Shown here piece by piece: positions 37,395 to 38,935 of a stretch of 64,000 nucleotides of DNA. Position 1 is the first letter of the stretch. Each line of letters begins with the position of its first letter. The notes beneath the pieces are model-generated. The model was given only the letters and a program-made list of their open reading frames with translations. It did not search any database and was not told where the DNA came from. The DNA comes from the human T2T-CHM13v2.0 reference genome, Homo sapiens: NCBI GenBank assembly GCA_009914755.4, contig CP086569.2, positions 2,400,001 through 2,464,000 on the forward strand, written 5' to 3'. The position numbers were made by a program, and so were the translations under genes.

Positions 37395-38935
37395 GGACCT
37401 CCAATTGTGACTGTGTTTGGAGATGGGGTCTTTAAAGAGGTGATTCAGGCTGGGTGCGGTGGCTCATGCCTGTAATCCCAGCACTTTGGGAGGCTGAGGC
37501 TGGCAGATCATGAGGTCAGGAGATGGAGATCATCCTGGCTAACACGGTGAAACCCCATCTCTACTAAAAATACAAAAAAAAAAAAAAAATTAGCTGGGCG
37601 TGCCTGTAGTCCCAGCTACTTGGGAGGCTGAGGCAGGAGAATCGCTTGAACCTGGGAGGTGGAGGTTGCAGTGAGCCGAGATCGCACTACTGCACTCCAG
37701 CCTGGGCGACAGAGCGAGGCTCTGTCTCAAAAAAAAAAAAAAAAAAAAAGAGGTGATTCAGGCAAAATGAGGTCACTAGGTTGGGCCCTGATCCAACAGG
37801 ACTGCAGACCTTATAAAAAGACGAGATGAAGACACAGACATGCACACAGGGACGATCCTGTGAGGACTTAGGGAAAAGATGGCATCCACAAGCCAAGGAG
37901 AGAGGTCTCAGTAGGAACCAGCCCTGCCCACACCTTGATCTCAGACTTCCAGCTTCCAGGCCTGTGGGAGAATCAATGTCCACTGTTTAAACAGCCTGGT
38001 CTGTGGGACTTTGCTATGGCAGCAGCCACAGTGGACAAACACATCTGTATTCCAATGAATGAGTTACCTCTGTAAGGGTTGAATTGTGCGTCTCCAAAAT
38101 TTATATATTGAAGGCCTAATCCCTAGGACCTCAGAACATGACTGTGTTTGGTGATGGGGTCTTTAAAGAGGTGAGAAGGGTACAATGAGCTCAGGAGGTT
38201 GTGCCCTGATCCAATAGGACTGGGGTCCTTATAAAAAGAGTAGATAAGGACACAGACACACACAGAGGGATGACCCTGTAAAGACACAGGGAGAAGAGGG
38301 TGTCTACAAGTCAAGAAGAGAGGCCTCAGGAGGAACCAGCTCTGCCCATGCCTTGATCTCAGAATTCCAGCCTCCAGGACTGTGGGAGAATAAAAGTCTG
38401 TGGTTTGTAAGCCACCCAGCCTATGGTATTCTGTGATAGCAGCCTGCAATGGACTAAGACATCTCATAAGAAGAGCAGATGAGGACACAGACATGCACAT
38501 AGAGGGATGACCACGTGGGGACACAGGGAGAAGATGGTGTCTACAAGCCCAGGACAGAGGCCTCAGGAGGAAACAGCCTTGCCCATATCCTGATCTCAAG
38601 ACGTCCAGCCTCCAGGGCTGTGGGAGAATCAATGTCTGTTGCTTATAAGCCACCCAGTCTATGGTATGCTGTGACAGCAGCCTGAAATGGACTAAGACAC
38701 CTCATAAGAAGAGGAGATGAGGACACAGACGCACACAGAGGGATGACCACGTGGGGACTCAGGGAGAAGACGGCATCTACAAGCCCAGGAGAGAGGACTC
38801 AGGAGGAACCGGCCCTGCCCACACCTTGATCTCAGACTTCCAGCTTCCAGGACTGTGGGAGAATCAAGGTTGTTGTTTAAGCTGCCCAGTCTTTGGGATT
38901 GCATTGTAACAACTCTGGGAAGCCATTACCAAGTC
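37395..38935 (+). repeat. Tandem array built from a MaLR-type (MST/MLT-like) LTR: two near-complete copies (37395-38010, interrupted by an Alu, and 38110-38460) followed by two ~240-bp copies of only the LTR 3' portion (38460-38700 and 38700-38935)
   Basis: Recurrent blocks ...ccttataa[a/g]aaga[g/c]nagatga[a/g]gacacagac[a/g][t/c]gcaca[t/c]agagggatgacc...gagaagatgg[t/c]atctacaagcc[c/a]agga[g/c]agagg[c/a]ctcaggaggaaccagc[c/t]ctgccca[c/t][a/g]ccttgatctcaga[a/c]ttccagcctccagg[a/g]ctgtgggagaat[c/a]aa[t/g]gtc...[a/g]gccacccagtctatggtat[t/g]ctgtga[c/t]agcagcctg[c/a]aatggactaagac. In the two short copies the LTR 3' end joins directly to the LTR interior. Confidence 0.7.
37449..37749 (+). mobile_element. 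Alu inserted into the first LTR unit, with a 15-bp TSD
   Basis: ggctgggtgcggtggctcatgcctgtaatcccagcactttgggaggctgaggctggcagatcatgaggtcaggagatggagatcatcctggctaacacggtgaaacc ... + A23. TSD aagaggtgattcagg on both sides. Confidence 0.95.

What the first reader, a model, noticed from the sequence alone, without database searches (positions are those of the whole stretch)
37395..38935. Tandem array derived from an LTR, including two copies of only the LTR 3' portion
Four consecutive related units occur. Two are near-complete MaLR-like LTRs; the first carries a later Alu insertion with a perfect 15-bp TSD. Two are ~240-bp units in which the LTR 3' end (…cagcctg[c/a]aatggactaagac) joins directly to the LTR interior (ctcataagaagag…). 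That is the signature of unequal-crossover tandem amplification rather than independent retroelement insertions. LTR-derived satellite-like arrays are uncommon, and this one sits in XG intron 1 within PAR1, a region with an extremely high male recombination rate. The 176-aa minus-strand ORF here is an artefact of the repeat.
Basis: seen in the sequence. Interest (0 to 1): 0.5.

Follow-up and report, generated by a model that had tools for sequence, protein, structure and literature searches.

The report
LTR-derived tandem repeat in XG intron
A single ancient retroviral LTR in intron 1 of the human XG gene was amplified head-to-tail into four units; this is a real but ordinary, apparently non-functional repeat whose 238-bp unit also occurs at other sites in and beside the pseudoautosomal region.

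Summary
Two full MaLR (MLT1B-type) LTRs (U1 37339-38043 with an Alu inside; U2 38071-38461) are followed by two copies of only the last ~238 bp (U3 38462-38699, U4 38700-38933). Both are joined by the same LTR-end-to-LTR-interior junction. Lemur has one LTR between the same flanks, so the block probably derives from one insertion, but that is not settled: lemur could instead have collapsed an array. Primates differ by whole units: one extra 3' unit after the second LTR in marmoset and siamang, two in human and orangutan, three in macaque. Hybrid units show in-register unequal exchange. The array is neither rare nor unique. The same junction sits in two other LTRs of XG, in a stray contig, and in a published MLT1B-derived multilocus tandem repeat at two other PAR1 sites. 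About 23% of human mini/satellites are TE-derived. Between loci the repeated core is much more alike than the LTR 5' parts and terminal 3' ends, although orthologues evolve equally fast in both. This suggests, but does not prove, spread by ectopic gene conversion. No function is evident, and the 176-aa ORF is human-only. The window is the Y copy and spans the pseudoautosomal boundary.

The parts
37339..37447 (+). U1, 5' segment of the first full MLT1B-type LTR, up to the Alu insertion point
   Evidence: It aligns to U2's 5' part and to model positions 2-110. It starts TGTTGTGAG..., like the other copies. The left flank is orthologous to the flank of the single lemur LTR.
37448..37746 (+). Alu inserted into U1. 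TSD copies lie at 37434-37450 and 37747-37763.
   Evidence: An exact 17-nt direct repeat flanks it, and marmoset has the empty site. The Alu is present in macaque, siamang and orangutan and absent in marmoset.
37747..38043 (+). U1, 3' segment, ending ...ggacaaacaca
   Evidence: Its 3' end is of the 'terminal/ancestral' type, only 60-69% identical to the junction-bearing 3' ends.
38044..38070 (+). 27-bp spacer between U1 and U2
   Evidence: It is conserved in orangutan and siamang, and marmoset has a diverged version. It is not purine-rich and has no TGG primer-binding-site start. Its similarity to the left flank is weak (p=0.016 in human, not significant in marmoset).
38071..38461 (+). U2, the second full LTR. 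Its last 235 bp (38227-38461) are the first copy of the 238-bp tandem unit.
38462..38699 (+). U3, a 238-bp unit made of the LTR 3' portion only. Its left junction is gaca|tctcataagaagag.
   Evidence: In great apes it is a hybrid of macaque units Ax2 (5') and Ax3 (3'), with the switch between model columns 293 and 300.
38700..38933 (+). U4, a 234-bp terminal unit. Its left junction is gaca|cctcataagaagag. Its last ~40 nt are the locus's own diverged LTR end, abutting the original right flank.
   Evidence: The right flank is orthologous to the flank of the single lemur LTR.
38123..38653 (-). 176-aa ORF spanning U2-U3, judged a non-coding artefact
   Evidence: One search lists it. It has no Pfam match. 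The stop-free stretch is 191 aa in both human haplotypes but only 76-93 aa in orangutan, siamang, macaque and marmoset.

Best explanation
This is a neutrally evolving, transposon-derived low-copy tandem repeat.

Shown:
- One ancient MLT1B-type (ERVL-MaLR) LTR site in XG intron 1 holds a single LTR in lemur.
- The same site holds U1, a 27-bp spacer, U2 and extra 3' units in all five anthropoid species examined.
- The extra units are in-register copies of the last ~238 bp of the LTR, joined LTR-end to LTR-interior.
- Whole units have since been gained or lost by in-register unequal exchange between neighbouring units.
- An Alu entered U1 in the catarrhine stem.

Inferred:
- U1 and U2 arose by a ~418-bp tandem duplication of the LTR plus a few flanking bases.
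- The junction-bearing 238-bp core was not born here. It was copied into this and other pre-existing MLT1B LTRs in and near PAR1 by ectopic (interlocus) gene conversion. This happened at about the time of, or shortly before, the New World/Old World monkey split.
- Each locus kept its own older 5' part and terminal 3' end.

The array has no evident function of its own. It is a substrate and a record of recombination.
For: Anatomy and shared junctions:
- Anatomy.
- The junction is present at locus A in every anthropoid examined: human, orangutan, siamang, macaque and marmoset.

Single ancestral site:
- Lemur L009 9565-9950 is one LTR.
- Its left flank aligns to the flank upstream of U1 (window 37185-37443 matches 9407-9665).
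- Its right flank aligns downstream of U4 (38704-39206 matches 9722-10203).

Whole-unit copy-number change, counting extra 3' units after the second LTR:
- Marmoset 1, siamang 1, human and orangutan 2, macaque 3.
- Hybrid units have single switch points. Ape A3 = macaque Ax2/Ax3, siamang's last unit = A3/A4, and the siamang C copy = C1/C2.

Mosaic inside the array:
- 6 sites support U1U2|U3U4 (unit columns 4-89), 10 support U1U4|U2U3 (columns 62-237) and 0 support the third split.
- The two classes sit in different parts of the unit (Mann-Whitney p=0.0017).

The junction is not private to this locus:
- The same junction is found at XG loci B (L003 35350-36081) and C (L003 54633-54026).
- It is also in contig L008 and in published cluster 73, an MLT1B-derived 235-bp repeat at two other PAR1 sites (PMC3389668 supplement).

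Core younger than shell:
- Between loci the 5' part is 63-76% identical and the core 85-89% (Fisher p=0.044 to 1.6e-7).
- Orthologues show no such difference (p=0.08-0.84).
- In the core, human-marmoset orthologues (87-88%) are no closer than paralogues (84-89%). In the shell, orthologues (80-84%) are far closer than paralogues (63-68%).
- Junction-bearing 3' ends are 82-95% alike across loci. Terminal 3' ends (U1, U4, C2) are 40-69% identical to everything.
- Five derived states (model columns 188, 349, 353, 355, 361) are shared by the cores of the full LTR copies at A, B and C in human, macaque and marmoset. They are absent from the lemur copies and from U1.

Loci B and C:
- B has an LTR with an orthologous flank in lemur, so it existed before the junction is seen.
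- C is supported by one-sided flank synteny.

No function detected:
- No Pfam hit, and the ORF is broken in other primates.
- No Rfam hit.
- No PRDM9 13-mer in the array.
Against: - Lemur could have collapsed arrays to single LTRs. Siamang lost one period at all three loci, so 'single in lemur' does not prove the single state is ancestral.
- The lemur copies are 84-89% alike over the whole LTR and show no locus-specific orthology signal to the human copies. The history therefore involves more exchange, or different rates, than the simple model states.
- Fixed lemur/anthropoid differences are not significantly enriched in the core.
- No MLT1B consensus was available to polarise changes.
- The donor locus is unidentified.
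- Spacer homology to the flanks is weak and was examined post hoc, so the U1/U2 tandem-duplication step is not proven.
- Whether the family is restricted to PAR1 was not tested genome-wide.
Confidence: 0.7

Rival explanations
1. An MLT1B-like LTR variant already carried the internal 238-bp duplication (as LTR12 carries internal repeats). It retrotransposed to loci A, B, C and other PAR1 sites. Lemur later collapsed each array to one LTR.
For: The junction is identical at several loci. Each begins exactly at the LTR 5' end and has unrelated flanks. Parallel whole-unit losses do occur, as in siamang. PMC3389668 notes that LTR12 repeats were spread by transposition.
Against: This model predicts uniform divergence between loci along the LTR. 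Instead, shells are 63-76% identical and cores 85-89%, while orthologous rates are equal. Terminal 3' ends differ strongly between loci (40-69%), whereas inner 3' ends are 82-95% alike. All catalogued or observed copies lie in or next to PAR1, which is unexpected for retrotransposition. MLT1 activity in primates is not expected (background knowledge).
Confidence: 0.2
2. U1 and U2 are the 5' and 3' LTRs of one MaLR provirus whose internal region was deleted down to 27 bp. Lemur's single LTR is the usual solo LTR formed by LTR-LTR recombination. The 238-bp units were added to the 3' LTR afterwards.
For: The two full LTRs are in direct orientation at one insertion site, and lemur has one LTR between the same flanks. 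The 74% identity between the U1 and U2 5' parts equals that between any two copies, so it does not exclude a proviral pair. Solo-LTR formation is common (background knowledge).
Against: The spacer starts T(C/T)(T/C)GT, not a TGG primer-binding site, and ends GAGTTACCTC, not a polypurine tract. A deletion leaving both LTR ends intact would need two flush breakpoints. The spacer's 3' part weakly resembles the sequence just upstream of U1 (p=0.016), as a tandem duplication would predict. No 5-bp TSD is recognisable.
Confidence: 0.25
3. The array consists of four independent LTR insertions or fragments that happen to be adjacent.
For: MaLR LTRs are abundant, and another copy lies 10 kb upstream.
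Against: U3 and U4 begin at the same internal LTR position and share the junction with U2 and U3. There is no sequence between units. Species differ by exact periods, with hybrid units. Lemur has one LTR.
Confidence: 0.01
4. The array is maintained because it does something. It might be a regulatory element of XG, a recombination-promoting sequence, or the 176-aa ORF might encode a protein.
For: The core is more alike between loci than the shells are. A recombination hotspot has been reported within XG (PMC11568759).
Against: Core and shell evolve at the same rate between orthologues. Unit number varies freely among species. The ORF is open only in human and has no Pfam match. The array has no PRDM9 13-mer and no Rfam match.
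Confidence: 0.04

Closest known systems
MLT1B-derived multilocus tandem repeat, 'cluster 73' of Ahmed & Liang 2012 (PMC3389668, supplementary table 3)
   Same: The unit has the same period (235 vs 234-238 bp) and the same source region (MLT1B positions 162-345/352). It has the same LTR-end|interior junction. Its consensus is 87-93% identical to units of loci A, B and C across the junction. It also lies in PAR1 (hg19 chrX:1,236,395 and 1,940,217, plus the chrY copies).
   Different: Those two arrays have units at least 95% alike, which was the catalogue's threshold. The XG arrays are older (units 76-86% alike) and were not listed. This one is additionally preceded by a second full LTR (U1) and carries an Alu.
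TE-derived minisatellites/satellites in general, expanded by unequal exchange or slippage
   Same: A partial TE segment is repeated head-to-tail next to a full element. Copy number changes stepwise. Most such repeats have 2-3 units (PMC3389668).
   Different: Most are single-locus and initiated in place. Here the same junction is spread over several loci.
LTR12-type LTRs with built-in internal tandem repeats
   Same: A tandem repeat inside an LTR is found at many loci with variable unit number.
   Different: In LTR12 the repeat is part of the transposing consensus. Here, divergence between loci is not uniform along the LTR, which argues against spread by transposition.
Ectopic gene conversion or recombination between dispersed retroelement copies (Alu, HERV LTRs); LTR6B-mediated X-Y exchange that extends PAR1
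   Same: Homology-driven exchange occurs between non-allelic repeat copies. LTR-mediated non-allelic recombination at this very boundary is documented (abstracts of PMC4222609 and PMC12081224).
   Different: Transfer of a tandem duplication between old LTR copies is inferred here, not observed directly. No rearrangement accompanies it.
STIR, subtelomeric interspersed repeats of the pseudoautosomal region (Rouyer et al. 1990, EMBO J 9:505; cited in PMC3164683)
   Same: From memory only: ~350-bp interspersed elements enriched in PAR1 and subtelomeres. This would fit a PAR1-clustered LTR-sized repeat.
   Different: This could not be tested. The paper is not held and no STIR sequence was available. 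Identity with this family is an unverified lead.

Membership tests
ERVL-MaLR LTR, subfamily MLT1B | Sequence similarity to the MLT1B consensus over the full ~390 bp | tested here: inconclusive
   No Dfam or RepeatMasker tool was available. Indirect support: the published RepeatMasker-based table assigns the same 235-bp unit to MLT1B positions 162-352, and that unit is 87-93% identical to ours. Full copies here are 389-391 bp long.
ERVL-MaLR LTR, subfamily MLT1B | LTR termini TG...CA | tested here: met
   U1 and U2 start TGT... and U1, U2 and U3 end ...ACA. U4's end is degraded (...CCAAG).
ERVL-MaLR LTR, subfamily MLT1B | Short (about 5-bp) target-site duplication around the insertion | tested here: inconclusive
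   No matching 5-mer was found between the flank upstream of U1 (...TTAAATC) and the flank downstream of U4 (TCTCTG...). Decay is expected at this age.
Tandem repeat (TE-derived minisatellite-like array) | Head-to-tail copies with a recurring junction and no intervening sequence | tested here: met
   TRF period 238, 2.9 copies, score 950. There are two junctions of the same type.
Tandem repeat (TE-derived minisatellite-like array) | Copy number changes by whole periods | tested here: met
   One, two or three extra 3' units after the second LTR in different primates. Hybrid units have single switch points.
Tandem repeat (TE-derived minisatellite-like array) | Copy-number polymorphism within humans (VNTR behaviour) | tested here: inconclusive
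   Only two haplotypes were compared, the window (Y) and GRCh38 X. They have the same unit number and are 99.875% identical over the array.
Multilocus tandem repeat (mlTR) | The same repeat unit arrayed at more than one genomic locus | tested here: met
   Loci A, B and C in XG, contig L008, and two further PAR1 loci in the literature.
Satellite DNA | Long homogeneous arrays (tens to thousands of units) | tested here: not met
   There are at most 4 units at any locus or species examined.
LTR family with intrinsic internal repeats spread by transposition (LTR12-like) | Uniform between-locus divergence along the LTR, with the same terminal end at all loci | tested here: not met
   Shell identity is 63-76% and core 85-89%. 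Terminal 3' ends are 40-69% identical and inner 3' ends 82-95%.
Provirus remnant (5' LTR - internal - 3' LTR) | Primer-binding site after the 5' LTR and polypurine tract before the 3' LTR | tested here: not met
   The 27-bp spacer TCTGTATTCCAATGAATGAGTTACCTC has neither.
Protein-coding gene (176-aa ORF) | Conserved open frame or a known domain | tested here: not met
   No Pfam family matches. The frame is interrupted in orangutan, siamang, macaque and marmoset.

The most novel reading that the evidence does not exclude
A 238-bp tandem duplication that arose in one MLT1B LTR was propagated, junction included, into several pre-existing diverged MLT1B LTRs within and next to PAR1 by ectopic gene conversion in the anthropoid stem lineage. 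This produced a PAR1-restricted multilocus tandem-repeat family with a young core in old shells. It would then be a fossil record of unusually frequent non-allelic exchange in the pseudoautosomal region, possibly the same thing as the old 'STIR' elements.
Probability: 0.45. Interest if true: 0.45.

Novelty: new member of a known kind. Interest (0 to 1): 0.28.

Why it matters
On its own it matters little. It is a non-coding, apparently neutral repeat of a common class, and its unit family is already catalogued.

Its modest value is as a natural experiment beside the pseudoautosomal boundary. Three loci with the same unit show exact-period gains and losses across primates. The young-core/old-shell pattern suggests that tandem duplications can be copied between dispersed LTRs by non-allelic conversion in a region with extreme male recombination.

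Such dispersed, similar repeats are also potential substrates for rearrangement near a boundary already known to move by LTR-mediated exchange.

Tried and rejected
- **A fifth, degenerate unit upstream of U1.** Alignments of 37195-37340 to the LTR 3' part plus spacer were no better than shuffles.
- **Spacer as a copy of the right flank.** The local alignment was not significant. An anchored test gave 61/20000, but the matching first 5 nt are human-specific. Rejected.
- **Spacer as a copy of the left flank.** A right-anchored test gave p=0.016 in human and was not significant in marmoset. Kept only as a weak hint.
- **PRDM9 13-mer CCNCCNTNNCCNC.** The window has 8 hits, none in the array; most have the Alu-type form CCNCCTTGGCCTC.
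- **Rfam.** No match at gathering thresholds for 36900-39300.
- **Pfam for the ORF.** No match.
- **Identifying the donor locus from lemur 3' ends.** Lc_A and Lc_B are equally distant from the inner-type ends.
- **Enrichment of fixed lemur/anthropoid differences in the core.** Not significant.
- **Literature on STIR/DXYZ2 and on MLT1 tandem repeats in PAR1.** Nothing is held.
- **Metagenome scan for the junction.** It returned one contig, which is too little to estimate genomic copy number.
- **XG isoform look-ups.** Four failed because only the longest isoform per gene is indexed, and a fifth failed for marmoset isoform X2.
- **L002 (Macaca thibetana).** It covers only part of the gene and was not used further.
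Full report
**What is there**

The sequence holds four related units on the + strand.

- U1 (37339-38043) is a full LTR interrupted by an Alu.
- A 27-bp spacer follows at 38044-38070.
- U2 (38071-38461) is a second full LTR.
- U3 (38462-38699) and U4 (38700-38933) contain only the last ~238 bp of the LTR.

TRF reports 38227-38896 as 2.9 copies of a 238-bp unit, with 85% matches and score 950.

The alignment with junctions shows that U3 and U4 both start at the same interior position (...YCTCATAAGAAGAG). 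They directly follow the LTR end ...AATGGACTAAGACA of the preceding unit.

Over the shared unit, identities are:
- U2-U3 85.5%
- U3-U4 80.6%
- U2-U4 78.4%
- U1-U2 77.7%
- U1-U4 76.5%
- U1-U3 75.5%

A separate MaLR copy in the window (25951-27338, minus strand) is only 62-71% identical.

The Alu is flanked by an exact 17-nt direct repeat, which gives a 14-17 bp TSD. Marmoset has the uninterrupted site.

**Where it is**

Probes for XG and CD99, recalled from memory, placed three features:
- XG exon 1 at 29276-29338
- a second XG exon at 51558-51581
- a C-terminal CD99 coding exon at 3226-3339

The GRCh38 XG locus was fetched through an XG homologue search. It matches window 28273-50737 at 99.68%. 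The array corresponds to chrX:2,760,345-2,761,940 and differs from the X reference by one mismatch and one 1-bp gap.

At 58320|58321 the window acquires a ~305-bp Alu, with TSD AAGTTAA, that the X lacks. The site is exactly chrX:2,781,479. It is followed by 216 nt at 78.7% identity and then no alignment.

That is the Y-side pseudoautosomal boundary as described by Ellis et al. and summarised in PMC11568759. The window is therefore a Y chromosome. The array lies in XG intron 1, in sense orientation, 19.4-21.0 kb distal to the boundary.

**Comparative evidence for tandem origin and unequal exchange**

XG loci were retrieved for:
- orangutan (L001)
- two macaque assemblies (L004, L005)
- siamang (L006)
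- marmoset (L007)
- ring-tailed lemur (L009)

The structures at the orthologous site are:

| Species | Structure |
|---|---|
| Orangutan | Collinear with human at 95% (U1 with Alu, spacer, U2, U3, U4) |
| Siamang | U1, spacer, U2 and one extra unit |
| Marmoset | U1 without the Alu, spacer, U2 and one extra unit |
| Macaque | A 477-bp out-of-register deletion fusing U1 to U2, followed by three further units |
| Lemur | One LTR |

Diagnostic sites show hybrids with single switch points:
- Great-ape U3 matches macaque unit Ax2 at 13 of its 15 Ax2-type sites between columns 169 and 293, apart from two Ax3-type sites at columns 202 and 206. It matches Ax3 at all 7 diagnostic sites from column 300 to 363.
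- Siamang's last unit is U3-like at its 5' end and U4-like from about column 252.

These are in-register exchanges between neighbouring units.

Lemur's one LTR has a left flank that aligns to the flank of U1 and a right flank that aligns to the flank of U4. The whole anthropoid block therefore occupies a single ancient insertion site.

Inside the human array the informative sites are mosaic:
- 6 support U1U2|U3U4, all in the first 89 columns of the unit.
- 10 support U1U4|U2U3, in columns 62-237.
- None support the third grouping.

The two classes differ in position (Mann-Whitney p=0.0017). This requires recombination or conversion among units.

**The array is not unique**

The orangutan search unexpectedly found two further copies of 'full LTR plus 3' unit(s)' inside XG, with the identical junction and unrelated flanks.

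- Locus B in human is L003 35350-36081 on the + strand. It comprises an LTR, one unit and a unit truncated at model position 264.
- Locus C is L003 54633-54026 on the minus strand. It comprises an LTR and one unit.

Both lie just proximal to the boundary and are present in all anthropoids examined.

- Siamang has lost exactly one period at B and at C. Its C copy is a C1/C2 hybrid.
- Marmoset B is a single LTR ending at the same position 264.

A metagenome scan for the junction returned one 1.5-kb contig with at least 3.5 units and an unrelated flank.

The supplementary table of Ahmed & Liang 2012 lists 'cluster 73'. It is a multilocus tandem repeat of period 235 derived from MLT1B positions 162-345/352. 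It lies at hg19 chrX:1,236,395 and chrX:1,940,217, plus the chrY PAR1 copies.

The cluster 73 consensus contains the same junction and is 87-93% identical to the units of A, B and C. This also supplies the subfamily name (MLT1B), which I could not test directly.

The same paper reports that at least 7,276 tandem repeats, 23% of human mini/satellites, are TE-derived, including 185 multilocus clusters. The class is therefore common.

**Young core, old shells**

All copies were aligned to one profile. Identities between the full LTRs at different loci (A-U2, B1, C1) are:

| Region | Model columns | Identity between loci |
|---|---|---|
| 5' part (shell) | 1-153 | 67-76% |
| Unit (core) | 154-345 | 84-86% |
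| Junction-bearing 3' ends | 346-387 | 88-92% between these three copies; 82-95% across all junction-bearing units |
| Terminal 3' ends (U1, U4, last unit of C) | 346-387 | 40-69% to everything |

- The shell/core contrast is significant for every paralogous pair tested in human, macaque and marmoset (p=0.044 to 1.6e-7).
- It is absent for orthologous pairs (p=0.08-0.84). Rate heterogeneity along the LTR therefore does not explain it.
- In the core, human-marmoset orthologues (87-88%) are no closer than paralogues (84-89%).
- In the shell, orthologues (80-84%) are far closer than paralogues (63-68%).
- The cores thus coalesce at about the platyrrhine/catarrhine split, and the shells well before it.
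- Five derived states (columns 188, 349, 353, 355, 361) are shared by the cores of the full LTR copies at A, B and C in human, macaque and marmoset. They are absent from the lemur copies and from U1.
- Locus B has an LTR with an orthologous left flank in lemur. C is supported by one-sided flank synteny. Neither carries the junction in lemur.

The simplest reading is that a junction-bearing core was copied into pre-existing LTRs by ectopic gene conversion, with each locus keeping its own 5' part and terminal 3' end.

U2's and U3's 3' ends are unlike U4's own terminal end (43-46% identical). Locus A therefore looks like a recipient, not the birthplace.

The U1-like character of U4's 3' half fits U4 retaining local sequence that is sister to U1.

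**Caveats**

- Lemur may have collapsed arrays, as siamang did.
- The lemur copies are 84-89% alike over the whole LTR and show no locus-specific affinity to human copies.
- Fixed lemur/anthropoid differences are not significantly enriched in the core.
- The donor locus is unknown.
- I had no MLT1B consensus to polarise changes.
- I did not test PAR1 restriction genome-wide.

I therefore hold the tandem-amplification and unequal-exchange parts at high confidence, and the conversion part at roughly even odds or slightly better.

**U1 versus U2**

This step has a different period (~418 bp) and includes the spacer.

- The spacer has no primer-binding-site or polypurine features.
- Its apparent match to the right flank rests on human-specific bases.
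- Its 3' part weakly resembles the sequence just upstream of U1 (p=0.016 in human, not significant in marmoset).

I favour a tandem duplication of the LTR with a few flanking bases. The alternative is a proviral LTR pair with an almost complete internal deletion. That alternative would also explain lemur's solo LTR and is not excluded.

**Function**

Nothing suggests a function.

- The 176-aa ORF has no Pfam match. It is open only in human; the longest stop-free stretches in other primates are 76-93 aa.
- There is no Rfam match.
- There is no PRDM9 13-mer in the array.
- Orthologous divergence is the same in core and shell.
- Unit number varies freely among species.

**Verdict**

However, the feature is an additional, older locus of an already catalogued MLT1B-derived multilocus tandem repeat, in a common class of TE-derived repeats. 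The one mildly unusual aspect is the evidence that the repeat was spread between old LTR copies around the pseudoautosomal boundary by non-allelic exchange.

Noticed in passing
window 58321-58625 and 58626-64000: An Alu insertion (TSD AAGTTAA) sits exactly at the GRCh38 PAR1 end (chrX:2,781,479). It is followed by 216 nt at 78.7% identity to X and then by sequence with no X match. The window is therefore a Y chromosome spanning the pseudoautosomal boundary, and XG is truncated here.
   Followed up: yes
L003 35350-36081 (+) and 54633-54026 (-), i.e. GRCh38 chrX about 2,786,624-2,787,355 and 2,805,300-2,805,907: Two more 'MLT1B LTR plus 238-bp 3' unit(s)' arrays with the same junction lie just proximal to the boundary. 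They are X-specific in catarrhines. Both lie beyond the window, because the Y sequence diverges at the boundary.
   Followed up: yes
L006 (siamang) 11098-11324, 32167-32663, 51622-51982: Siamang has lost exactly one 238-bp period at each of the three XG loci. At A and C a hybrid unit remains.
   Followed up: partly
L005 (macaque) 11206-11378; also L004: Macaque has a 477-bp out-of-register deletion fusing U1 (model column ~205) to U2 (column ~268). It also has one more 238-bp unit than apes.
   Followed up: partly
L009 (lemur) 9565-9950, 27772-28141, 36540-36710: The three lemur LTR copies are 84-89% identical to each other over the whole LTR. That is much closer than the anthropoid copies are in their 5' parts. 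It hints at separate interlocus homogenisation, or a much lower rate, in the lemur lineage.
   Followed up: partly
window ~38720 (19.6 kb distal to the boundary): PMC11568759 places the classical sperm-typing marker DXYS77 in an XG intron 19.6 kb distal to the boundary. That position would fall at or beside the U3|U4 junction. The nature of the marker and its primers could not be checked.
   Followed up: no
window 37083-37145: A 29-bp unit is repeated 2.2 times (88% matches) inside the Alu at about 37008-37190, just upstream of the array.
   Followed up: no
window 25951-27338 (-): This is an older MaLR/MLT1-like LTR, split by insertions. It is 62-71% identical to the array units and lacks the junction. 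I used it as a background comparison.
   Followed up: partly
L008 (metagenome contig ERZ1033861 NODE-11325, 1509 bp): This contig carries at least 3.5 units with the same junction and an unrelated flank. It is 96% identical to the chrX:1.236 Mb consensus over 327 nt. It is probably primate (human) DNA in a metagenome assembly, but its genomic origin was not established.
   Followed up: partly
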